From NCBI GenBank assembly GCA_022450705.1, contig JAKUPP010000004.1:1-49135 (forward strand): 49,135 nucleotides of DNA, written 5' to 3'. This stretch comes from Alphaproteobacteria bacterium. Lineage in GTDB: Bacteria; Pseudomonadota; Alphaproteobacteria; GCA-002720895. The notes beneath the pieces were generated by a model. That model saw only the letters and a program-made list of their open reading frames with translations, was not told the DNA's origin and did not search any database. Positions 3,205-14,167 of this stretch are shown one piece after another (within the stretch, counting starts at the first letter, position 1; each line of letters starts with the position of its first letter). The position numbers were made by a program, and so were the translations under genes.

Positions 3205-4188
3205 TTGTCTAAATTTAAGTTTCTTTATCTAATCTTTGGTATAGCACTCCTTGTTTTTATATTTAATAAAGTTGATTTTAATTCTTTTTTAAATGAATTA
3301 AACAAACTAAGATTTAGTTTCTTTGCTATCCTCATTATTTATTTTGTTGGATTTATTTTAGATAGTTACTCATGGCAATTATGTATAGAAAATTTAGTTA
3401 AAACAAAACTAAAACTCCATCAAATATTTAAAATTAGAATTATAGGAGAAGCATTTAATTATATATTTTTTCAAGTAGGAGGAGAACCTGTAAAAGCATT
3501 TTTATTAAAAAATAATTATGGAATTAAATATAAATCTTCGATTGGTTCATTAATACTAGCAAAAACAATTATTCTTTTCGCTCTTATAATTTTTTGTTTT
3601 GTAGGTCTAGTTAGCATCTTTTACACAAATAAATTTGGAGATAACTTTGAAAAAGCTTCTTTAATAGGTTTTGTTTTATTTACAACGTTAATATCTTTAT
3701 TTTTTATAGTTCAAAGATATAAATTAACATCAAAATTCCATAATATTTTTAAAAATAAATTATCAAAAAAATTTAATAACTTTTTTAAACATTTACAAGA
3801 AACAGAGCATAAAATTGCTGATTTTTATAAAAAAACAAAAAAAGATTTTTTTAAAATTTTATTTTTAAATTTAAGTAATTGGTTTTTTGGTGCTCTTGAA
3901 TTATATGCAATTTTTTATCTTTTAAATGAAAAAATTACTTTCTTAGAGGCAGTAGCAATTGAAACTCTTGTTCAATTAGTAAGAGCAATGCTTTTCTTTA
4001 TACCTTCAAATTTAGGAACTCAAGAGGGTGTTTTTGTTTTAGCTGTAAATGTATTAAAAGATTCAACGCCTTTAGGATTGGCTGTTGCTATAATTAGAAG
4101 GCTAAGAGAGGTTATATGGATAAGTATAGGTTTAATTTTAGGATTTAATCAAAAAATAGATTTTAAGGAAATTAAAAAAAGATTATAG
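3205..4188 (+). CDS. Lysylphosphatidylglycerol-synthase TM / UPF0104 flippase-like membrane protein
   Basis: Multiple hydrophobic segments; GEAFN..VGGEPVK and FFIPSNLGTQEG motifs; TTG start. Confidence 0.8.
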   Translation: MSKFKFLYLIFGIALLVFIFNKVDFNSFLNELNKLRFSFFAILIIYFVGFILDSYSWQLCIENLVKTKLKLHQIFKIRIIGEAFNYIFFQVGGEPVKAFLLKNNYGIKYKSSIGSLILAKTIILFALIIFCFVGLVSIFYTNKFGDNFEKASLIGFVLFTTLISLFFIVQRYKLTSKFHNIFKNKLSKKFNNFFKHLQETEHKIADFYKKTKKDFFKILFLNLSNWFFGALELYAIFYLLNEKITFLEAVAIETLVQLVRAMLFFIPSNLGTQEGVFVLAVNVLKDSTPLGLAVAIIRRLREVIWISIGLILGFNQKIDFKEIKKRL

Positions 4189-4800: not shown

Positions 4801-5518
4801 CTATTTTTTTTAAAATATTTTTTTTAGCTAAGTCTAAATCTTTTTTAAAATCAATTTCGATCCAAGGAAGATTATTTATATGTTCATACTCCATTAAAAA
4901 TTTTTTTTCTTTAATTAATTTTTGAATTGCATCTTCATACATTGCTTTTTTATTCTTTGCCTTTATTTTTTTAGATTCATTTAATAATTTAATTGATGTT
5001 TTTTTTGAAAATTTAAAAAAACCAACAGACTCTCCTTGGAAATCAAAATTATTATCAACGTTTTTTCCAAAATCATAAATTTTATTATTTTTAATACAAA
5101 CTTTTACAGGCTCTTCTCCAGATTCAAAATGCTTATCAATTAAAAGTGTATCTTTTTTTTTTGTATCAATTAATTTTTTTAAAATTTTTTTATCATATAA
5201 AACATCTCCATCCATTAAAATTAACTCTCCTCTTTCATAAAAGAAACTGCTAGCACATACTAAAGAAACTATACTTCCTAATTTATATTTTGGATTTTTA
5301 ATGATCTTTATTTTTTTTTTCTTATCTATTTCTTTGATACATTTAATTAAGTACTGTGATTTATAACCTACAACAATTCCTATTTTTTTTACTCCCAAAC
5401 TTAAAAGATTGTCATAGTGTCTTTCGAGTAAACTTCTATTTCCAATTCTTAATAAGATTTTTGGAAGACTTACTTTTAATCTTTTACCAATTCCTGCTGC
5501 GAGTATTAATGCTTTCAT
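4793..5518 (-). CDS. Phosphocholine/phosphonate cytidylyltransferase-like NTP transferase (LicC/PntC-like)
   Basis: ILAAGIGKRL, MDGDVLY, EEPVK, GESVGF, WIEIDF..DL. Confidence 0.85.
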   Translation of the reverse strand: MKALILAAGIGKRLKVSLPKILLRIGNRSLLERHYDNLLSLGVKKIGIVVGYKSQYLIKCIKEIDKKKKIKIIKNPKYKLGSIVSLVCASSFFYERGELILMDGDVLYDKKILKKLIDTKKKDTLLIDKHFESGEEPVKVCIKNNKIYDFGKNVDNNFDFQGESVGFFKFSKKTSIKLLNESKKIKAKNKKAMYEDAIQKLIKEKKFLMEYEHINNLPWIEIDFKKDLDLAKKNILKKIDE

Positions 5519-5546
5519 TTATATTTAAAAATTATAAACAATAATT

Positions 5547-5564
5547 ATGTCATATATTTGTAAT
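5547..5564 (+). promoter_or_regulatory. Putative Pho box (PhoB site) upstream of pepM
   Basis: ATGTCAT-ATAT-TTGTAAT matches CTGTCAT-A(A/T)A(T/A)-CTGT(C/A)A(C/T) at 16/18 positions with 11-bp repeat spacing. Confidence 0.55.
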
Positions 5565-5586
5565 ATTTTTATATTTGTAATACAAT
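5558..5586 (+). promoter_or_regulatory. Putative sigma70 promoter of pepM
   Basis: TTGTAA(5558-63)-17 nt-TACAAT(5581-86); predicted start a few nt before ATG 5595, no Shine-Dalgarno. Confidence 0.5.
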
Positions 5587-5594
5587 TCTAAGTA

Positions 5595-7268
5595 ATGGCA
5601 ATAATACATGCAAAAGACATTGGTATTAGAAAAATATCTAAATCACAACTTTTAAAAAAAGAACTTAATAGTAAAGAACTATCATTTTTAATGGAAGCCC
5701 ATAATGGTTTGACTGCAAAAATAGTCGAGACAAGTGGTTTCAAAGGAATATGGGCGTCTGGATTATCTATATCAACTGCCCTTGGTGTAAGAGATAGTAA
5801 CGAAGCTTCATGGACACAAATATTGGATGTTTTAGAATTTATGTCTGATGCAACAACAATACCAATACTAGTTGATGGAGATACTGGTTATGGGAATTTT
5901 AACAATTTTAGAAGACTTGTTTCAAAACTATGTCAAAGAAAAATTGCTGGTGTCTGTATTGAAGATAAACAATATCCTAAATCAAATTCTTTTGTTAAAA
6001 AATATCAAAAATTAGCTGATATAGATGAATTTTGTGGAAAAATACAAGCGGGTAAAGACATGCAAGATGATGATAATTTCTCTATTGTTGCAAGAGTAGA
6101 GGCTTTAATAGCTGGTTGGGGAATTGGAGAAGCTATCAAAAGAGCAGAGGCATATTGTAAAGCTGGCGCTGATGCGATACTTATACATTCAAGCAAAGAT
6201 AATGCGAATGAAATATTAAAATTTAAAAAAGAATGGGGGAATAAATCTCCTGTAATTATTATTCCAACTACTTATCATAAAACTCCGACAAATATTTTTA
6301 AAAAAGCTGGTTTTTCTACTGTTATTTGGGCCAACCATTCTTTAAGAGCTTCAATTAAAGCAATTCAAGATGTAACAAATCATTTAATCAAAAAAGAAAG
6401 TATTAAAGGTTTGGAAAATAAAATATCAAGTTTAAATGAGGTTTTTGAATTAGCAGGAAATGATGAATTATATGAAGCTGAAAAAAAATACTTATTAGAA
6501 AAAAAGAATTATAATGCAATTGTTTTAGCTGCATCTAGAGGTCATCAACTTAAACATTTAACTAAAAACAAACCTAAATGTATGCTTGATATTCAAGGAA
6601 AACCTCTTTTAGAAAGACTAACTTCAACATTGAAAAAAGATAATATTGGGAAAATCTCAATAGTTTCTGGATACAAAAATAATGTAATTGAAAATAATAA
6701 TAATCTATCAAATCTAAATATTATTCAAAATAAAGATCATGCTAAAACTGGTGAGCTTTTCTCACTTAATAAATCTGCAGATGAAATAAAAGATGATTGT
6801 ATTGTAACCTATGGTGATATAGTTTTTAGAAAATATATTTTAGATGCATTATTATCTACTAAAGGAGAAATTGTAATAGTAGTTGATGCTCTTCTTAAAA
6901 ATAAAGGAAAAAAGTCCCAAAAAGATCTTGTGATTTGTGATAGAGAATTTACTGGAAACTATCTACTTGAATCTAAACCAGCAATTTTAAAATCGGTGCA
7001 TAATGAATTAAAGAAAAAAATTACTGGTCAATGGATTGGTTTATTAAAAACAAACTCAAAAGGATCAAAAATATTAAGAAATCAAATTCATGCTTTAAGT
7101 AAAAACAAAAACTTTAAAAATTTAGCAATGCCAGATTTATTTAATAATTTAATAAAAAATAAAATTAAAATTAATGTTCTTTATATAGCTGGGCAATGGT
7201 TGGATGTAAATGATGCTTTTGATTTAGCTGAAGCTAGAAAAGTATCTTGGGCAAAAAGCTTTAATTAG
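5595..7268 (+). CDS. pepM: Phosphoenolpyruvate mutase fused to a C-terminal nucleotidyltransferase domain
   Basis: Diagnostic EDK-x5-NS ([10 protein letters not shown]), MEAHNG, DGDTGYG, IWANH; C-terminal LAASRG..KPKCML, YGDI, WLDVN. Confidence 0.95.
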
Positions 7269-7887
7269 TTGACTTTACAAATCTTTTCAAATTATAAATA
7301 ACAAAAACAACTGAACCAATTGAAGCTATCAGAAAAAAGAAATTAATAAATCCAATCCAAGTAATTGGTCCAATTAAATATACGCCATCTTCTAATGCTA
7401 CTTTGTCTGTTTCTGGAAAACCATAAAAATCCTTACTAGTTCTAAATTTATGAATAATTCCTAAAAAAGTATTAAAAATAGATGCAATAATAGCTGAAAA
7501 TAATAAATAGTTCTGTAAATCGAAATCTACAATACTAAAAAACTTAATTTCAAAAGTTCCGGGCGGTATACCAGCTGAAATGCCGACAAACATCAATATA
7601 TATGTTGCGGTATCAACAAAACTATCATAATACCATCCAAATTTACTTTCTTTTTTTAACTCTCTTGCTAACTGCCCATCTACATGATCTAAAAATTTAG
7701 AAAAAATAAATAAAATAGACCCAATAACAGAAAAGACATATATACCAAAACTAAAAAATACAGCAGCTAATGCTGCTAACAAAAGACTAAATGTGGATAC
7801 TTGATTGGGAGTTATAGAAGTTTGTGCTATATATTTAACAACTTTTTCTGCAATCTTTTCATCTATCTTTTTTCTATATTTAAACAT
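7261..7887 (-). CDS. CDP-alcohol phosphotransferase family protein (complete motif)
   Basis: TPNQVS and DHVDGQLAR-x8-G-x3-D-x3-D. Confidence 0.88.
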
Positions 7888-7986
7888 ATAAGAACTTCAA
7901 AAAAAAATTTTCATTTCTTGCAAATTGATTATAATCATTTATATATTTTTTATATATTTTTTTATAAACATTATATTTAATTTAAT

Positions 7987-8139
7987 ATGACTGATAAATT
8001 CACATCAAGAAAAGCTAAAGATATTGCAACAGCAAGTTCTTATGCATTTTCAAAAAAAAAAATAGCTGGTAACTCAGCTACATCAAATATCTATACTTCG
8101 GGAAGATCAGCAAAAACTACTGCTACTAAAAATTCATAA
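7987..8139 (+). CDS. Small 50-aa Ser/Thr/Ala/Lys-rich hypothetical peptide (below ORF-track cutoff)
   Basis: Hand translation MTDKFTSRKAKDIATASSYAFSKKKIAGNSATSNIYTSGRSAKTTATKNS*; fills the gap, ends 12 nt before the hydrolase ATG, coding-like composition. Confidence 0.55.
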   Translation: MTDKFTSRKAKDIATASSYAFSKKKIAGNSATSNIYTSGRSAKTTATKNS

Positions 8140-8151
8140 GAATTATTTAGT

Positions 8152-9021
8152 ATGAAATCTTTCCCGGAAAAGAAATCCTTAATTAAATTAAGGAATGGGA
8201 ATAATATTGGTCACTCTTTCTTCGGTAATAAAAGAAATTTTCCTATTTTTTATTTTCATGGATGGCCAGGCTCTAGATTTGAACTAAGAAATATACCATT
8301 AAAAAAAAAGAAATGCTTTATAATTGCGTTAGAAAGACCTGGTTATGGAATATCGGACCCAATTTCAAATTTTAAAATAACTGATTGGCCTAAAATTGTT
8401 TTAGAATCTGCAAATAAACTTAAAATTAAGAAATTTTCTATAATTGGTGTTTCTGGAGGCGCTCCTTTTGCTCTTGCTTGTGCAAATAAAATTAAAAGTA
8501 AAATACTTAAATCGGTTGCTATAGTTTGTCCATTAGCACCCCATAATGCTAAAGGTATGAGGAATGGTAGAGTTGGAATGTTATTAAACTATGGAAAAAA
8601 ACCTATTACATCATGGTTGTTAATTAATTTCTTAAGAATAAGATTGCTAAACAGTGATACTGAAAAAAGTTTTGCTAGATGGAAAAATAAAATACCTCTA
8701 CCTAAATCGGATTCAAAATTATTCACAATAGATAGAGGAATAAAGCTAATGGAAAATTTTAAAGAAGCTATTAAACATGGAACTACAGGTGTTCATAGAG
8801 ATGCAAACTTATATTCAAAAGATTGGGGTTTTAAATTAAAAAACATAGAAAGAAAAATTTTTGTTTGGCATGGAGAAAAAGATTTAACTGTGCCAATTAT
8901 TACAAATAAATATTACAAAAAAAAATTAAAAAATAAGGAAATATTTATAAAGCCAAATGAAGGTCATTTCTCTATTTGTTATAATTTTATGAATGATATT
9001 ATTCAACAAGTAAGTGAATAA
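8152..9021 (+). CDS. Alpha/beta-fold hydrolase
   Basis: FHGWPGSR, ERPGYG.S, nucleophile GVSGG, WHGEKD and GHFS catalytic triad elements. Confidence 0.9.
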   Translation: MKSFPEKKSLIKLRNGNNIGHSFFGNKRNFPIFYFHGWPGSRFELRNIPLKKKKCFIIALERPGYGISDPISNFKITDWPKIVLESANKLKIKKFSIIGVSGGAPFALACANKIKSKILKSVAIVCPLAPHNAKGMRNGRVGMLLNYGKKPITSWLLINFLRIRLLNSDTEKSFARWKNKIPLPKSDSKLFTIDRGIKLMENFKEAIKHGTTGVHRDANLYSKDWGFKLKNIERKIFVWHGEKDLTVPIITNKYYKKKLKNKEIFIKPNEGHFSICYNFMNDIIQQVSE

Positions 9022-10342
9022 GTATTTAGATACTCCGTTAAAAACAAAAAAAATACCTAAAGGTATACCTTATATTATTGCAAACGAAGCTGCTGAGCGT
9101 TTTAGTTTTTATGGAATGAAAGGAATATTGGTAATCTACATGACCCAATATCTTTTTCTGACAACCGGAGAGTCAAATATTTCTGAGCAAAGTGCTAAAG
9201 CATATTTTCATTTATTTACATCAGCAGTTTACTTTTTTCCAATATTTGGTGCTTTAATCTCAGATATTTTTTTTGGAAAATACAAAACAATAATTGCTTT
9301 ATCGTTAATTTATTGTTTAGGTCATTTAGTTCTCTCCATCGATCCTTCTATATTAGGCTTATCTCTTGGTTTAATATTTATTTCAATGGGATCCGGAGGA
9401 ATTAAGCCATGCGTATCTGCACATTTAGGTGATCAATTTAGTAAAACTAATAGTAATTTAATTGGTAAAGCTTATAGCTGGTTTTATATCGCAATTAATT
9501 TAGGAGCATTTACATCAACATTAATAACTCCTTATTTGTTAAAATATTATTCTCCAAGCATCGCTTTTGGGGTTCCAGGAATCTTTATGGTTTTAGCTAC
9601 ATTATTTTTCTGGGCAGGAAGATATAGATTTATACATATTAAACCTCAAGGAAAAGGGACTTTTTTAGAACTAAAGAAGAGTAAAAACATAAAAATTATA
9701 TTAAAACTTTTTTCTATCTTTATATTTGTATCTTTTTTTTGGTGTTTATTTGATCAAACTGGCTCTTCTTGGATACTTCAAGCAGAGAAGATGGACCGTG
9801 AAATTTTTGGATTTGAAATTCTTAGTGGTCAAATTTTATCAGCTAATCCAATAATGATATTAATTTTTACACCTTTATTCTTTAAGTATTTATATCCTAA
9901 ATTAAACAGTTATATAAATCTTAATTCCGTCAACAAAATTATAATAGGTTTTTTTTTAACATTTCTATCCTTTGCTTTAATCACAATTATTCAATATTGG
10001 ATTGATTTAGGGAAAGAAGTAAATGTTAGTTGGCAATTATTAGCTTATGCAATATTAACAAGTGGTGAAATTTTTGTATCTATAACATGTTTAGAAATAT
10101 CTTATACTCAAGCACCTAAAAAATTAAAATCCATTACAGTTTCAATTTTTCTACTAAGTATTGCTATTGGCAATATTTATACCAGTTTAATAAATTTTTA
10201 TAATGAAAGAGAAGATGGGAGTGTTATTTTAACTGGGTACAATTATTTCTTACTTTTTACCCTAATGATGCTCGTTGTTACATTTTTATTTATTCCATTT
10301 GCTAAAAAATTTGCAAATGAAAAAGTTTTATTACAAGGATAA
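9014..10342 (+). CDS. POT/PTR family proton-dependent oligopeptide transporter (MFS)
   Basis: EAAERFSFYG (ExxERFxxY), GSGGIKPCVS..GDQF, FY..INLG, YTQAP; GTG start overlapping the hydrolase stop. Confidence 0.92.
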   Translation: MNKYLDTPLKTKKIPKGIPYIIANEAAERFSFYGMKGILVIYMTQYLFLTTGESNISEQSAKAYFHLFTSAVYFFPIFGALISDIFFGKYKTIIALSLIYCLGHLVLSIDPSILGLSLGLIFISMGSGGIKPCVSAHLGDQFSKTNSNLIGKAYSWFYIAINLGAFTSTLITPYLLKYYSPSIAFGVPGIFMVLATLFFWAGRYRFIHIKPQGKGTFLELKKSKNIKIILKLFSIFIFVSFFWCLFDQTGSSWILQAEKMDREIFGFEILSGQILSANPIMILIFTPLFFKYLYPKLNSYINLNSVNKIIIGFFLTFLSFALITIIQYWIDLGKEVNVSWQLLAYAILTSGEIFVSITCLEISYTQAPKKLKSITVSIFLLSIAIGNIYTSLINFYNEREDGSVILTGYNYFLLFTLMMLVVTFLFIPFAKKFANEKVLLQG

Positions 10343-10354
10343 AAAGTAGAAGTG

Positions 10355-10771
10355 TTATTTAAACAATCTAAGGCTTGAGCTTTTTAATTTTTTTTTAAGA
10401 TCTTTTTCTAAGGCTTTGTTAAATTCGTATATTTCAGAAGGAAATTTCATTTCAATAACATTATTTTTGCTTACTACCTTACCTTTTTTAAAAATGCTAT
10501 ATTTTTGAGATCTTGGATCAATTTGTATACATATAGGTTTCTTTGTTATAACTCTTCCTATTTTACAATCTTTTCCTATTGCAGCAGATAAAAGATGGTC
10601 GTTAATTGTTTTTCCTGTTGTTTGATATGTTGCTACATCTGCAACTCCTTTAGTTATACCTAAATATTTTAATGCTGTTTCAGTTCCTGATGGAGCTAAA
10701 GAACTACAACCAGACAAAGCAACAAACGAAGCAATAATAGTTATTTTATTTTTAAAATTAATTTTTTTCAT
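10355..10771 (-). CDS. Hypothetical lipoprotein
   Basis: Basic N-terminus, hydrophobic stretch and lipobox LSGC; ATG at 10771 preferred over the track start at 10783. Confidence 0.65.
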   Translation of the reverse strand: MKKINFKNKITIIASFVALSGCSSLAPSGTETALKYLGITKGVADVATYQTTGKTINDHLLSAAIGKDCKIGRVITKKPICIQIDPRSQKYSIFKKGKVVSKNNVIEMKFPSEIYEFNKALEKDLKKKLKSSSLRLFK

Positions 10772-10772
10772 A

Positions 10773-10794
10773 CTTATCAACATCTTATCAACAA
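10773..10794 (+). repeat. Tandem 11-bp repeat containing TTATCAACA twice (DnaA-box-like)
   Basis: CTTATCAACAT CTTATCAACAA; each copy is one mismatch from TTATCCACA. Confidence 0.4.
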
Positions 10795-10844
10795 TTTTTT
10801 AACTTGACAAATTAATTACTTGCATTGTATACATTATTTCATAT

Positions 10845-10860
10845 ATACTATATATTGTAC
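10845..10860. promoter_or_regulatory. Putative NrdR box upstream of nrdR
   Basis: ATACTATATATTGTAC fits acaCwAtATaTwGtgt and overlaps a TATACT -10-like hexamer (10844-49). Confidence 0.55.
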
Positions 10861-10885
10861 TGTTAGATAGGATTGCAAGAAAAAA

Positions 10886-11389
10886 ATGTTAAAAAAAAAT
10901 AAGGAATTATGCCCAATTTGTAACGAATCAATTCAAAAAAAAGGGATTAAAAATTTTAACCTTAATGAGACCACTGTAACAGATTCGCGTGTTACAAAAA
11001 ATGGTTCAATGATACGTAGACGTAGAGTTTGTGTATGTGGAAGTGGTTATAGATTTACAACTTATGAGAGAATTTATAGACCTGAATTAACAGTTATTAA
11101 AAGAAATGGCCAGATTATCCCTTTCAATAAAGAAAGAATTTTTCAATCAGTAAGAATTGCCTTAAATGGTTGTGTAGATCAAGAAAAGAAAACTGAGCAA
11201 ATATCTAATGAAGTAAATGAAAAAATTCAAGATTTCGGTAAAGATAGCGTGCCAACCAAAACCATAGGAGAATACATACTAAAAGCACTTAAAGAAAAAG
11301 ATAAAATGGGATATGTAAGATTTTATGGTGTTTTCAAAAAAGTAACTGATCCTAAAGAATATAAAAGAATTGTCGATACGCTTCACTAA
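10886..11389 (+). CDS. nrdR: Transcriptional repressor NrdR (Zn ribbon + ATP cone)
   Basis: CPIC...V.DSR...IRRRR.C.C...RFTTYER, VIKRNG ATP cone, YVRF. Confidence 0.9.
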   Translation: MLKKNKELCPICNESIQKKGIKNFNLNETTVTDSRVTKNGSMIRRRRVCVCGSGYRFTTYERIYRPELTVIKRNGQIIPFNKERIFQSVRIALNGCVDQEKKTEQISNEVNEKIQDFGKDSVPTKTIGEYILKALKEKDKMGYVRFYGVFKKVTDPKEYKRIVDTLH

Positions 11390-11391
11390 AA

Positions 11392-12291
11392 TTAAATATT
11401 TTTTTTTAAGAATTCAGCAAATTTAAGAAAATCTTTTGATCTTGGAGTGGAAATTCTCCAACATACAGCGATCTCTCTGTAGTTTTGATTATTTTCATAA
11501 TTTAAAATTTTAATTTTATTAGTTTTAAGTAATTCAGAGTTTATTACTAAGTCTGGTAATAAGGTTATTCCACTATTATTTGCAACCATTTGAACCAAAG
11601 TTAGTAAGCTTGTTGCTTTAAAAGCATCTATTTTTTGTTTTGCTTCCTTACTGCATGCTTGGAGCGCATGGTCTCTTAAACAATGTCCTTCATCTAACAA
11701 AAGCATATTACTATTACTGATATCTTTATTATTCAATGATTTCTTTTTGGTTTCTGCTAAAGGACTATCAGTAGGAAGTGCTACATGAAAAAAATCTTTT
11801 TTTATCAACTCAATATGTAAGTTCTCTACTTTATAAGGCCTTGCAATTAATGCTAAATCTAAACTTCCAGAATAAAGCATGTTTAAAATATTTGCGGTTT
11901 GATCTTCAACAAGTTTAAGAGATATTGATGTATATTCTTTTCGGATTTTTGGCATTAATCTTGGCAATATATATGGGGCAATAGTTGGTATAACCCCTAA
12001 TCTTGTTTCCCCAAACATATGTTCTTGGGCTGATTTAGCTAAGTCCAAAACATCATTCATCTCAATATTTATATATTTAGCCTTGTCTGCAATTTTTTCT
12101 CCTAAAGGAGTTAAAAAAACTTTTCTTTTTGTTCTTTCAACTAATTTAACATTTAATAATTTTTCTAATTCTTGTATACCGGAACTAAGAGTGGATTGGC
12201 TTACAAAGCATTCTTTAGCTGCTTTACCAAAATGTAAACATTTTGAAACTGATACTAAATATTTTAATTGCCTAAAAGTTGGATGAAACAT
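11392..12291 (-). CDS. oxyR: Hydrogen peroxide sensor OxyR (LysR family)
   Basis: LysR HTH (HFGKAAKECFVSQSTLS), GVIPTIAPY, redox motif GHCLRDHALQAC (C-x8-C), ATSLLTLVQMV. Confidence 0.92.
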   Translation of the reverse strand: MFHPTFRQLKYLVSVSKCLHFGKAAKECFVSQSTLSSGIQELEKLLNVKLVERTKRKVFLTPLGEKIADKAKYINIEMNDVLDLAKSAQEHMFGETRLGVIPTIAPYILPRLMPKIRKEYTSISLKLVEDQTANILNMLYSGSLDLALIARPYKVENLHIELIKKDFFHVALPTDSPLAETKKKSLNNKDISNSNMLLLDEGHCLRDHALQACSKEAKQKIDAFKATSLLTLVQMVANNSGITLLPDLVINSELLKTNKIKILNYENNQNYREIAVCWRISTPRSKDFLKFAEFLKKNI

Positions 12292-12312
12292 AAAATTTAA
12301 CTATTTTTACTA

Positions 12313-12349
12313 ATCGATATAGTCGATTATTTTATACAAAAAAAATTAT
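12313..12349. promoter_or_regulatory. Putative OxyR/LysR operator between oxyR and pqqA
   Basis: ATCG-N7-CGAT (12313-27) inside inverted repeat TAATCGA-N5-TCGATTA, plus an 11-bp-phased TTAT at 12346-49 abutting the -35; resembles ATAG-N7-CTAT. Confidence 0.6.
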
Positions 12350-12378
12350 TTGATCAATCAAAAAAAAGAGGCTAAATT
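12350..12378 (+). promoter_or_regulatory. Putative sigma70 promoter of pqqA
   Basis: TTGATC(12350-55)-17 nt-TAAATT(12373-78). Confidence 0.55.
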
Positions 12379-12405
12379 AGTATCAACCTTTAAGGGAGGT
12401 CAATC

Positions 12406-12483
12406 ATGACTTGGTATACACCTAAAGTTGCAGAAATAGCTGTTGGCCTTGAAATTAATAGCTATGCATGCGCTGAAGTTTAA
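12406..12483 (+). CDS. pqqA: PQQ precursor peptide PqqA (25 aa, missing from ORF track)
   Basis: Hand translation MTWYTPKVAEIAVGLEINSYACAEV*: W-x-x-P and E-x3-Y (EINSY) core typical of alphaproteobacterial PqqA; strong SD GGGAGGT at 12394-400. Confidence 0.92.
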   Translation: MTWYTPKVAEIAVGLEINSYACAEV

Positions 12484-12500
12484 TTATTAAACTTCTTTAT

Positions 12501-12540
12501 AAAAACGGCTCTTAGTATTATTATTAAGAGCCGTTTTTTT
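12501..12540 (+). terminator. Intrinsic terminator after pqqA
   Basis: AAAAACGGCTCTTA...TAAGAGCCGTTTTTTT perfect stem followed by a T run. Confidence 0.85.
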
Positions 12541-12559
12541 ATTTATAATCAAAAAAAAA

Positions 12560-13246
12560 TTGTCATTAAATAACTGGAAAAATCTTAATCAAGAAATAAT
12601 AGGCTGCCGAAAATGTAAAAGACTTGTGAATTTTAGAGAAAAAATAGCTCGTAATAAAACAAAAAGATTTAAAAAATGGAATTATTGGGGCAAGCCTGTT
12701 ATTGGATATGGCAATAAAAACGGAAAATTAATAATTTTAGGTTTAGCTCCTGCTGCTCATGGTGGGAATAGAACTGGAAGAGTTTTTACTGGTGATAAAT
12801 CTGCTGATTTTTTAGTTAGTTGTTTACATAAAGTCAAATTTGTAAATCAAACTACTTCAGAAAGAAAAAATGATGGTTTAAAAATGTATAATTCGTATAT
12901 GACTCCGGTTTTAAAATGTGTTCCTCCTGAAGATAAACCAACAACAAAAGAGCTGACTAATTGTTTTCATTTTTTTAAAGAAGAAACAAAATTATTAAAA
13001 AAAAGTAAAATCTTTTTAGCCTTAGGAAAAATAGCTTTTGATGCATGTGTAAAATTTTTCAAAGATAGTAATTATATTGATTATAATTATAAATTTAAAT
13101 TTTCTCACGGAGTTACCTATAAAATTAATAATAAATTTACACTTGTAGGTTCGTATCATCCAAGTCCTAGAAATGTAAATACGGGAAGGTTAAATTCAAA
13201 AAAAATGATATATTTATTAAACAAAATAAAAAAAAAAATCAAATGA
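12560..13246 (+). CDS. Uracil-DNA glycosylase, family 5 (UdgB-like, 4Fe-4S)
   Basis: CRKC, GLAPAAHGGNRTGRVFTGD, KCVPP.DKP, YHPSPRN; TTG start. Confidence 0.88.
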   Translation: MSLNNWKNLNQEIIGCRKCKRLVNFREKIARNKTKRFKKWNYWGKPVIGYGNKNGKLIILGLAPAAHGGNRTGRVFTGDKSADFLVSCLHKVKFVNQTTSERKNDGLKMYNSYMTPVLKCVPPEDKPTTKELTNCFHFFKEETKLLKKSKIFLALGKIAFDACVKFFKDSNYIDYNYKFKFSHGVTYKINNKFTLVGSYHPSPRNVNTGRLNSKKMIYLLNKIKKKIK

Positions 13247-13701
13247 AATTAGAAAAAGCAATTTTAGGGGCAGGTTGTTTTTGGCATGTAGAAGAATTTT
13301 TCTCAAATATTAAAGGTGTTCATGCAACTAGGGTTGGGTATGCATGTGGTATTACTAAAGATCCTACATACAAGTTAGTTTGTACAGGTGATACTGGTCA
13401 TGTTGAAGTTGTAGAAATTACCTTTAATCCGGAAATCGTAAAATACGATCAATTACTTAAACAGTTCTGGCAAATACATGATCCTACGTCAGTTGATAAA
13501 CAAGGGCCAGATGTTGGTTCGCAATATAAGTCTGCTTTATGTGTTTTAAATGATATTCAAAATGAAGTTGCAAAAAAGAGTAAAAAAGAAATTCAAAATA
13601 AGTTTGATAATAAAGTAGTTACACTAATTTGTAGATGTAAAATATTTTATCCAGCAGAAGAATATCATCAAAAATACTTAAAAAAAAATCCTGGTTACTG
13701 A
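13243..13701 (+). CDS. msrA: Peptide methionine-S-sulfoxide reductase MsrA
   Basis: GCFW, GHVEVV, HDPT..DKQGPDVGSQY, AEEYHQKY; ends in TGA right after NPGY. Confidence 0.93.
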   Translation: MKLEKAILGAGCFWHVEEFFSNIKGVHATRVGYACGITKDPTYKLVCTGDTGHVEVVEITFNPEIVKYDQLLKQFWQIHDPTSVDKQGPDVGSQYKSALCVLNDIQNEVAKKSKKEIQNKFDNKVVTLICRCKIFYPAEEYHQKYLKKNPGY

Positions 13702-13766
13702 AAAACTTGCATTATTCCTCAACCTATAGATTAAAAAAAAATCGAATTTTTCTTAAATTATCCAAT

Positions 13767-14167
<401 letters not shown>

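What the first reader, a model, noticed from the sequence alone, without database searches (positions are those of the whole stretch)
11392..12540. oxyR-pqqA divergon: an orphan PQQ precursor gene wired as the apparent direct OxyR target
Seen: OxyR with both redox cysteines is divergent from a 25-aa PqqA missed by the ORF track. pqqA has its own TTGATC-17-TAAATT promoter, a strong SD and a strong terminator, so it looks monocistronic; no pqqB-E lies in the window. The gap holds ATCG-N7-CGAT centred about 65 bp before the predicted start, plus a phased element abutting the -35, which is classic LysR/OxyR activation geometry. Established: oxyR is typically divergent from peroxide-defence genes (katG, ahpC, dps); PqqA is consumed stoichiometrically to make PQQ; and PQQ is redox-active. 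Inference: peroxide stress induces PQQ precursor supply, making PQQ (or the peptide) an antioxidant output in place of the usual catalase/peroxiredoxin neighbour. I know of no description of this arrangement.
Basis: partly seen in the sequence, partly recalled or inferred. Interest (0 to 1): 0.85.

Follow-up and report, generated by a model that had tools for sequence, protein, structure and literature searches.

The report
Peroxide sensor gene facing PQQ-precursor gene
In an uncultured, catalase-free marine bacterium, the hydrogen-peroxide sensor gene oxyR sits back to back with an extra copy of the tiny gene for the PQQ cofactor precursor, where relatives keep catalase or peroxiredoxin genes, so peroxide may control PQQ supply, though this is untested.

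Summary
Window 12406-12483(+) encodes a 25-aa PqqA that scores above the Pfam and NCBIfam cut-offs. It is divergent from a 299-aa OxyR-type LysR regulator that has both redox cysteines.

The 114-bp gap holds a perfect dyad, AATCGA-N5-TCGATT, which occurs once in the 989-kb assembly. It is centred 65 bp before the predicted pqqA start and lies on the predicted oxyR start.

1. The gene is not an orphan. It is one of three dispersed pqqA paralogues in this order. Relatives carry pqqABCDE next to a PQQ dehydrogenase, and here that island falls in an assembly gap between contigs C2 and C66.
2. The "phased element" at the -35 is a palindromic TTGATCAA shared with oxyR's own promoter.
3. The dyad and the oxyR promoter survive in lineages where this pqqA is deleted or a pseudogene, so autoregulation alone could explain their conservation.

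The arrangement is kept in 8 of 11 genomes of the order and in 23 of 26 informative metagenome loci. It was absent from 88 other pqqA-plus-OxyR genomes. Distant OxyR homologues hold peroxidase, peroxiredoxin or Dps genes in the same slot.

OxyR control of pqqA is plausible (about 0.55) but inferred only. This is a new variant of a known kind, of moderate interest.

The parts
10886..11389 (+). nrdR (ATP-cone plus NrdR zinc ribbon); a conserved neighbour, convergent with oxyR
   Evidence: Pfam and NCBIfam matches. Synteny in the orthologous loci.
11392..12291 (-). oxyR: 299-aa LysR-type regulator with both redox cysteines (C204 and C213 in its own numbering)
   Evidence: The cysteine pair is kept in all 13 orthologous sequences checked. 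Nine orthologues align at 64-86% identity to it.
12312..12328 (.). Perfect dyad AATCGA-N5-TCGATT. It is the predicted OxyR recognition site, lying over the predicted oxyR start and centred about 65 bp before the predicted pqqA start.
   Evidence: Occurs once in the assembly. The half-sites are kept while the 5-nt spacer varies in the orthologues.
12329..12357 (-). Predicted oxyR promoter: TTGATC, 17 nt, TAAAAT
   Evidence: Listed by the scan. The same hexamers and 17-nt spacing are seen in the orthologues read by eye.
12350..12378 (+). Predicted pqqA promoter: TTGATC, 17 nt, TAAATT. Its -35 overlaps the oxyR -35 inside the palindrome TTGATCAA.
   Evidence: Sequence. A TAnnnT hexamer lies 16-17 nt after the -35-like hexamer in 8 of 8 orthologues, although its letters differ. 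It is below the scan threshold.
12393..12399 (+). Shine-Dalgarno AGGGAGG of pqqA
   Evidence: GGGAGGTCA is the same in the seven orthologues with intact pqqA.
12406..12483 (+). pqqA paralogue, 25 aa including the E16-x3-Y20 pair
   Evidence: Among 17 copies, 15 of 18 variable columns are third codon positions and none are second positions.
12501..12545 (+). Intrinsic terminator after pqqA
   Evidence: 15 conserved pairs, 2 of them with compensatory changes, in 6 orthologues.
12560..13246 (+). Family-4-like uracil-DNA glycosylase. It has a TTG start about 15 nt after the terminator T-run, with little room for a promoter of its own.
   Evidence: Synteny.
13243..13701 (+). msrA (peptide methionine sulfoxide reductase), overlapping the udg stop
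   Evidence: Pfam PMSR, 194.7 bits. Synteny.

Best explanation
This is a lineage-specific OxyR divergon in which the neighbouring target gene is an extra copy of pqqA.

Shown:
- A real OxyR-type peroxide sensor and a real, translated PqqA peptide gene are transcribed divergently across 114 bp.
- The two predicted promoters are back to back and share a palindromic -35 (TTGATCAA).
- One perfect dyad, unique in the assembly, lies on the predicted oxyR start and about 65 bp before the predicted pqqA start.

Inferred:
- OxyR bound at the dyad represses its own gene. When oxidised by H2O2, it activates the weak-(-35) pqqA promoter. This is the way LysR regulators work at divergent promoters, oxyR-oxyS in E. 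coli being the recalled textbook case.
- The short, strongly translated and strongly terminated pqqA message then adds precursor peptide to a PQQ pathway that the organism very probably has. Relatives carry pqqABCDE next to a PQQ-dependent dehydrogenase, and here that island lies in an assembly gap.
- The result would be a rise in PQQ supply under peroxide stress. Whether that replaces damaged cofactor for the periplasmic dehydrogenase or acts as a scavenger cannot be told.
- Some read-through into udg-msrA is possible.
For: Identity of both genes. The cysteine pair is kept in all 13 orthologous sequences checked.

Translation of pqqA: 15 of 18 variable columns are in third codon positions and 0 in second positions, among 17 copies.

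Geometry:
- The dyad centre is at 12320, against a predicted pqqA start near 12385.
- The oxyR promoter lies on the minus strand at 12357-12329.
- The spacing from dyad to -35 is 22 nt in 8 of 8 orthologues.
- A -10-like hexamer stays 16-17 nt after the -35 in 8 of 8, while its sequence changes.

Conservation:
- The divergon is in 8 of 11 genomes of the order, spanning 3 genera, with OxyR down to 64% identical.
- pqqA is intact in 23 of 26 metagenome loci that have OxyR at 65% identity or more and at least 200 nt of upstream sequence.

Slot: 7 of 8 distant OxyR homologues (34-41% identity) have a peroxidase, peroxiredoxin or Dps/ferritin gene in the divergent position.

Pathway present in kin: pqqC and pqqE are in 5 of 11 genomes, next to a 622-aa PQQ dehydrogenase. 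The island's flanks lie at the ends of G000 contigs C2 and C66.

No catalase or KatG was found in any of the 11 genomes.

Literature, passages only:
- Orphan pqqA copies are differentially regulated, and PqqA supply can be rate-limiting (PMC11317620).
- PQQ scavenges ROS in vitro (PMC6300522).
Against: - No expression or binding data exist. The pqqA start and both promoters are predictions, and the pqqA promoter matches only 8 of 12 consensus positions.
- Every conserved element of the gap (the dyad, TTGATCAA, TAAAAT and their fixed spacing) is also what oxyR's own autoregulated promoter needs.
- These elements survive where this pqqA was lost. G007 keeps only about 31 nt of the 3' end of pqqA. 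L088, L094 and L107 carry pseudogenes with E16K, frameshifts or stops.
- No second, activation-type site could be told apart from the shared -35.
- pqqBCDE is not shown to be in this genome itself.
Confidence: 0.55

Rival explanations
1. Autoregulation only. The dyad is merely oxyR's own operator, and pqqA is expressed constitutively from its own promoter. On this reading a pqqA copy landed between oxyR and udg-msrA in the ancestor of the order, and the adjacency has no regulatory meaning.
For: - The dyad overlaps the predicted oxyR start, and the oxyR promoter TTGATC-17-TAAAAT is the best-conserved promoter in the gap.
- The dyad and the oxyR promoter are retained in G007, where pqqA is deleted.
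- They are also retained in L088, L094 and L107, where pqqA is a pseudogene.
- pqqA has a strong Shine-Dalgarno and terminator, like the other two copies, which lack the full dyad.
Against: - The dyad sits about 65 bp before the predicted pqqA start, the usual place for a LysR activator (recalled).
- The pqqA -35 is weak in several orthologues (TAGATC, TGGATC, TGGTTC), which suits dependence on an activator.
- The slot is filled by genuine peroxide-defence genes in 7 of 8 distant homologues.
- The arrangement is kept with intact pqqA in 23 of 26 metagenome loci.
Confidence: 0.28
2. The physiologically relevant OxyR output is the repair pair udg-msrA, reached by read-through of the pqqA terminator. 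On this reading pqqA is a passenger at the head of the unit.
For: - udg starts about 15 nt after the terminator T-run, with a TTG or GTG start and no obvious promoter of its own.
- msrA repairs oxidised methionine (Pfam PMSR).
- pqqA-udg-msrA synteny is conserved.
- In G007, most of pqqA and its terminator are gone. There udg, with an ATG start, lies 113 nt from oxyR behind the retained promoter region.
Against: - The terminator is strong (17 pairs, T7-T11) and is conserved with compensatory changes, which argues that most transcripts stop there.
- A TATAAT lies just after it in genus g1 and could serve udg.
- This reading is not exclusive of the best explanation.
Confidence: 0.12
3. The short pqqA message (about 160 nt) also acts as a regulatory RNA, in the manner of oxyS, whose place next to oxyR it occupies.
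For: Only the analogy of position and size with E. coli oxyR-oxyS (recalled) and the strong terminator.
Against: The substitution pattern is that of a translated peptide: 15 of 18 variable columns are third codon positions. Nucleotide sequence outside the coding need is not specially conserved. No Rfam search or target search was made.
Confidence: 0.03

Closest known systems
E. coli oxyR-oxyS divergon, and LysR-type divergent promoters in general (recalled textbook knowledge, not from a call)
   Same: - The regulator gene and a short, strongly terminated target transcript are divergent.
- One regulator site overlaps the regulator's own promoter or start and lies upstream of the target's -35.
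- The dyad has the form T-N11-A.
   Different: - The target encodes a cofactor-precursor peptide, not a small RNA.
- The half-sites are ATCGA/TCGAT rather than the ATAG/CTAT type.
- Binding and induction are not shown here.
oxyR divergent from katG, ahpC or dps (the classical neighbours)
   Same: The same regulator family and the same slot. Distant homologues of this OxyR found in metagenomes have peroxidase (L096, L099/L100, L101), peroxiredoxin (L095, L102) or Dps/ferritin (L097) genes there. L097 carries a similar AATCGATTATATCGCAT next to oxyR.
   Different: Here the slot holds pqqA. No catalase or KatG was found in any of the 11 genomes of the order. Peroxiredoxin-family genes exist elsewhere in the genome (7 matches) without the dyad.
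Multiple or orphan pqqA copies in methylotrophs: M. extorquens AM1 pqqA2 and pqqA3, and the five copies of Methylovorus sp. MP688
   Same: - Dispersed extra pqqA genes lie apart from pqqBCDE and are regulated differently from the operon.
- PqqA supply is reported as rate-limiting (PMC11317620, passages read; it cites Ge 2015 and Toyama and Lidstrom 1998, which I did not read).
- Multi-copy pqqA is common in the class sample.
   Different: None of those copies is described as paired with OxyR. In 88 sampled pqqA-bearing genomes with an OxyR-like gene outside this order, none had the two genes adjacent.

Membership tests
PqqA (PF08042 / TIGR02107) | Profile score above the curated cut-off | tested here: met
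   28.1 bits against a cut-off of 21.1, and 35.3 against 20.
PqqA (PF08042 / TIGR02107) | Glu-x3-Tyr pair that is cross-linked to make PQQ (motif recalled) | tested here: met
   E16-I-N-S-Y20 is in the ORF and is invariant in 17 copies. It is changed to K16 in the pseudogene L088.
PqqA (PF08042 / TIGR02107) | The small ORF is translated (purifying selection on the peptide) | tested here: met
   Of 18 variable columns, 15 are third codon positions, 3 are first and 0 are second. The only residue changes among the 17 copies are A/S at position 9 and I/V at position 11.
PqqA (PF08042 / TIGR02107) | pqqB/C/D/E present in the same genome | tested here: inconclusive
   None were found in the 79%-complete assembly. 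Five of 11 kin have pqqC and pqqE. The island's flanks lie at the ends of G000 contigs C2 and C66.
OxyR (LysR-type peroxide sensor) | LysR HTH plus substrate-binding domains | tested here: met
   PF00126 at 67.1 bits and PF03466 at 131.7 bits.
OxyR (LysR-type peroxide sensor) | Score above the cut-off of the NCBIfam OxyR equivalog models | tested here: not met
   NF008361 scores 220.4 bits against a cut-off of 329, and NF050018 scores 205.9 against 500. The model is tuned to E. coli: in the tool's controls it matched 5 genomes but passed the cut-off only in one. OxyR is still the best family by more than 80 bits.
OxyR (LysR-type peroxide sensor) | Redox cysteine pair nine residues apart (E. 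coli C199/C208; numbering recalled) | tested here: met
   GHCLRDHALQAC aligns with GHCLHDQIVDLC of a solved OxyR. The pair is present in all 13 orthologous sequences checked.
OxyR (LysR-type peroxide sensor) | Closest solved relatives are OxyR | tested here: met
   All 16 sequences at E<=1e-20 are OxyR, 'hydrogen peroxide-inducible genes activator', or entries titled only 'LysR family transcriptional regulator' (which I take from recall to be OxyR2). The best is 7l4s at 9e-53.
OxyR (LysR-type peroxide sensor) | Responds to H2O2 and binds the dyad | not testable with these tools
   No cultured strain exists. The RNA runs held nothing over the gap.
LysR-type divergent activation site | Dyad of T-N11-A form about 65 bp before the target start, overlapping the regulator's own promoter (recalled rule) | tested here: met
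   The dyad at 12312-12328 is centred 65 bp before the predicted start, near 12385. It lies directly after the oxyR -10. The starts are predicted, not measured.
LysR-type divergent activation site | A second, weaker activation site next to the target's -35 | tested here: inconclusive
   The only conserved element there is TTGATCAA(T), which is also the oxyR -35.

The most novel reading that the evidence does not exclude
In a catalase-free, genome-streamlined marine alphaproteobacterial order, the one perfect OxyR operator found at oxyR drives a dedicated pqqA paralogue. Hydrogen peroxide would then directly raise the supply of PQQ precursor. This would make PQQ, or keeping a PQQ/lanthanide-type alcohol dehydrogenase supplied with cofactor, an inducible part of the peroxide response. 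The other two pqqA copies would answer to a different regulator.
Probability: 0.4. Interest if true: 0.65.

Novelty: new variant of a known kind. Interest (0 to 1): 0.5.

Why it matters
It would tie the peroxide regulon to cofactor biosynthesis. An OxyR-driven paralogue would therefore be a simple switch for PQQ output.

In surface-ocean bacteria that lack catalase, this would be a new element of peroxide physiology. It would also show how paralogues of a 25-aa precursor gene divide up regulatory inputs.

The natural losses (one deletion and three pseudogenes with the operator kept) give ready-made comparisons. The limits are real: the organisms are uncultured, nothing is measured, and the most economical alternative, plain autoregulation, is not excluded.

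Tried and rejected
- RNA evidence. One search for runs gave only small shares, 0.05-0.09 of the sampled words. Laying 4 runs showed contigs over nrdR, parts of oxyR and the udg/msrA junction. Nothing lay over the gap or pqqA. These are contigs, so no conclusion about expression, starts or ends can be drawn.
- A wider OxyR regulon. AATCGA-N5-TCGATT with up to 1 mismatch gives 0-4 sites per genome in the 11 genomes, fewer than the backwards-read control pattern (5-16). There is therefore no enrichment and no site at peroxiredoxin genes. Three sites were noted but not pursued: G000:C2:2883, G006:C5 and G009:C51.
- 'True orphan'. I rejected this because the pqq island and the third pqqA locus both fall between G000 contig ends. 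The second gap also lacks rho and cysS, which the organism must have.
- A sigma-54 or other special promoter for the TGCC repeats of copies 1 and 3. I considered this by eye and did not test it.
- The alignment of the G007 remnant by MAFFT was poor. A local alignment with shuffles was used instead.
- Literature. One search (pqqA + OxyR) found 14 papers, none with both terms in the title or abstract. I read passages of two of them and found only co-clustering of catA and pqqACD in Rhodobacter sphaeroides (PMC10064930). One search (PQQ, peroxide, pqq genes) returned mostly animal studies. Supplementary files were not opened.
Full report
**What is there**

The window is very A+T-rich; the whole assembly has 27% G+C. 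At 12406-12483(+) lies a 25-codon ORF. It scores above the curated cut-offs of both PqqA models: Pfam 28.1 bits against 21.1, and TIGR02107 35.3 against 20.

At 11392-12291(-), divergent from it, lies a 299-aa LysR-type regulator. Its best family is OxyR (NF008361, 220 bits). That is below the E. coli-tuned cut-off of 329. In the tool's own controls, the same model matched five known genomes and passed the cut-off in only one.

All 16 solved-structure matches at E<=1e-20 are OxyR proteins. The motif GHCLRDHALQAC aligns with the redox cysteine pair of a solved OxyR. The pair is present in all 13 orthologous sequences I checked.

The neighbours are nrdR (convergent with oxyR), then after pqqA a family-4-like uracil-DNA glycosylase and msrA.

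**The gap (12292-12405)**

The perfect dyad AATCGA-N5-TCGATT lies at 12312-12328. ATCGA-N5-TCGAT occurs once in 989,081 bases.

The promoter scan lists TTGATC-17-TAAAAT on the minus strand (12357 to 12329). This puts the predicted oxyR start inside the dyad.

It matches only 8 of 12 consensus positions, so the scan did not list it.

The two -35 hexamers overlap inside the palindrome TTGATCAA. With a start near 12385, the dyad centre (12320) lies 65 bp upstream of pqqA.

AGGGAGG precedes the ATG by 6 nt. A 17-pair terminator with a T-run follows the stop (-22.7 kcal/mol; 0 of 200 shuffles fold as well).

**Is pqqA translated?**

I collected 17 copies from the order. They show 18 variable columns: 15 at third codon positions, 3 at first and none at second. 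The only residue changes are A/S at position 9 and I/V at position 11. This is a peptide under strong purifying selection.

**Not an orphan**

The genome's order, which is a single family of 11 species genomes, has pqqA in 10 of 11 genomes, usually in 2-3 copies. There are three kinds of locus.

1. *An operon copy.* In G003 and G006 the order of genes is: TonB-dependent receptor, pqqA, pqqB, pqqC, pqqD, pqqE, then on the other strand a solute-binding protein, a 144-aa protein and a 622-aa PQQ-dependent dehydrogenase. pqqC and pqqE are found in 5 of 11 genomes.
2. *The oxyR-linked copy.*
3. *A third copy.* It is divergent from a DAO-family oxidoreductase and is followed by a Lon-N-domain gene, near rho, hisI and cysS.

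In G000 the genes flanking the operon island map to the very ends of contigs C2 and C66. The receptor gene is cut at C2 position 3. The other flank begins around C66 position 80-160. The third locus likewise falls between the ends of contigs C57 and C73, together with rho and cysS. The absence of pqqBCDE from this 79%-complete assembly is therefore best read as an assembly gap.

The only PF01011 match in G000 is weak: 18.9 bits alone, or 40.1 bits when the tool adds neighbouring matches in the same frame.

**Conservation of the divergon**

nrdR, oxyR, pqqA and udg (with msrA where the flank reaches) are syntenic in G000, G001, G002, G003, G005, G008 and G010. In G009 the locus is split over two contig ends. 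That makes 8 of 11 genomes, covering all three genera, with OxyR down to 64% identical.

G004 and G006 gave no OxyR with this query. They are 59% and 71% complete.

In the orthologues:
- The half-sites of the dyad are kept while the 5-nt spacer varies.
- The distance from the dyad to the -35 is 22 nt in 8 of 8.
- The minus-strand TTGATC-17-TAAAAT is kept.
- A TAnnnT hexamer stays 16-17 nt after the plus-strand -35, although its letters change. The forms seen are TAAATT, TAATTT, TACTAT, TATTTT, TATAAT and TAAATA.
- The terminator keeps 15 pairs, 2 of them with compensatory changes.

The metagenome scan returned 48 loci. I examined 35 of them and dropped 13 that had 45% identity or less or only short matches.
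- Of the 27 with OxyR at 65% identity or more, one had too little upstream sequence to judge.
- Of the other 26, 23 have an intact pqqA.
- The remaining 3 (L088, L094, L107) carry pseudogenes, with E16K, frameshifts or stops.
- The dyad is present, with at most 2 mismatches, in all 27.

**A natural deletion**

G007 has oxyR at 68% identity, with both cysteines. Between oxyR and udg there are only 113 nt. They hold a one-mismatch dyad, the oxyR promoter, sequence alignable up to about the pqqA -10, and then about 31 nt of the 3' end of pqqA. That remnant has 27 identical positions, and 0 of 1000 shuffles reach its score. The terminator is gone, and udg there starts with ATG.

So this pqqA copy has been lost or has decayed at least three times while the operator stayed.

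**Elsewhere**

- In an even sample of 401 genomes of the class, 74 carry pqqA. Of the 71 outside the order, 31 have an OxyR-like gene at E<=1e-45, and none has it near pqqA. The nearest pair on one contig is about 55 kb apart.
- A phylum sample added 59 new pqqA genomes. Of these, 57 have an OxyR-like gene and none has it adjacent.
- Together that is 0 of 88. I compared the coordinate tables by eye.
- The 8 distant OxyR homologues (34-41% identity) from the metagenome scan lack pqqA. Seven have a peroxidase (L096, L099/L100, L101), a peroxiredoxin (L095, L102) or a Dps/ferritin gene (L097) in the divergent slot. L100 was not scanned separately; it mirrors L099.
- L097 has AATCGATTATATCGCAT beside oxyR, which suggests that this dyad type is a general OxyR operator form.
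- No catalase or KatG was found in any of the 11 genomes of the order. G000 has 7 AhpC/TSA-family matches.

**Reading**

The anatomy is that of a LysR-type divergent control region. I recall that rule and the oxyR-oxyS example from E. coli; neither comes from a call.

I think it most likely (about 0.55) that oxidised OxyR activates this pqqA copy and so raises precursor supply to an existing PQQ pathway. This fits two reports, both read as passages only. Extra pqqA copies are differentially regulated and PqqA can be rate-limiting (PMC11317620). PQQ scavenges ROS in vitro (PMC6300522).

The main rival (about 0.28) is that the dyad only autoregulates oxyR. Every conserved element of the gap is needed for that, and all of them persist without pqqA.

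A third reading (about 0.12, and not exclusive of the first) is that read-through reaches udg-msrA. udg has almost no room for a promoter of its own.

Nothing here measures transcription or binding. The RNA runs were uninformative.

**Novelty**

Orphan and multi-copy pqqA genes, and OxyR divergons, are both known. Their pairing was not found in 88 sampled genomes outside this order. It was also not found in the literature search (14 papers, none with both terms in the title or abstract). This is a new variant of a known kind, confined to one uncultured marine alphaproteobacterial order. The record titles name 'MarineAlpha6' and 'Pelagibacteraceae bacterium'.

Noticed in passing
L035 (G003:C20) 4934-13940; G000 contigs C2 (start) and C66 (start): Relatives carry a compact island. 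It runs TonB-dependent receptor, pqqABCDE, then on the other strand a family-3 solute-binding protein, a 144-aa protein and a 622-aa PQQ-dependent dehydrogenase. This looks like a xoxF-type methanol/ethanol dehydrogenase cluster in a genome of about 1 Mb. In G000 it falls in an assembly gap.
   Followed up: partly
L019, L008, L020, L021 (third pqqA locus); L012, L013, L016, L011 (operon copy): Copies 1 and 3 share an upstream direct repeat, TTGCC(A)...TGCCA, about one helical turn apart, which copy 2 lacks. Copy 3 also keeps a TAATCGA half-site about 83 nt before its ATG. The three paralogues therefore seem to have different regulatory inputs, and copy 3 may retain a weak OxyR half-site.
   Followed up: no
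L070 (G007:C52) 1388-1500; L088, L094, L107: The oxyR-linked pqqA has decayed independently several times. One case is a deletion that leaves about 31 nt of the 3' end. Three metagenome loci carry pseudogenes (E16K, frameshifts, stops). The dyad is kept in all of them.
   Followed up: yes
G000:C2:2883-2899 (L119): AATCAATAAAATCGATT has one mismatch to the dyad and is identical to the operator form of genus g2. It lies about 70-80 nt upstream of a 588-aa B12-binding radical-SAM gene (C2:1048-2814, minus strand). That gene sits in a 2.5-kb stretch that G003 lacks, between the 204-aa gene and the TonB receptor. It may be a second OxyR site.
   Followed up: partly
L067 (G006:C5) 3528-3544; L068 (G009:C51) 397-413: A second perfect dyad (AATCGATTTAATCGATT / AATCGACTTAATCGATT) lies in an orthologous gap, about 100 nt upstream of a 94-aa secreted protein with no Pfam family. 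A 246-aa outer-membrane-like ORF is divergent from it.
   Followed up: partly
L048 / L029 (G001:C87, 4435 bases): This contig of G001 carries an oxyR 99% identical to the window's, while G001's own locus (C54) is only 67% identical. It is probably a contig of a G000-like strain binned into G001, which is listed at 7% contamination.
   Followed up: no
L012, L013, L016, L005: just after the operon pqqA stop: A conserved 20-bp perfect palindrome, ACGTTTAATCGATTAAACGT, lies between pqqA and pqqB. It contains two abutting TAATCGA-like halves. It could be an RNA hairpin or attenuator, or a protein site.
   Followed up: no
window 10886-11389: The NrdR ORF is 167 aa, and the profile matches start only at about residue 26. 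It has an extended or unusual N-terminal zinc-ribbon region (TIGR00244 at 93 bits, below its cut-off of 124.65).
   Followed up: no
whole order (11 genomes): No catalase (PF00199) or catalase-peroxidase (TIGR00198) was found in any of the 11 genomes, which are 54-89% complete. Peroxiredoxin-family genes are present.
   Followed up: partly
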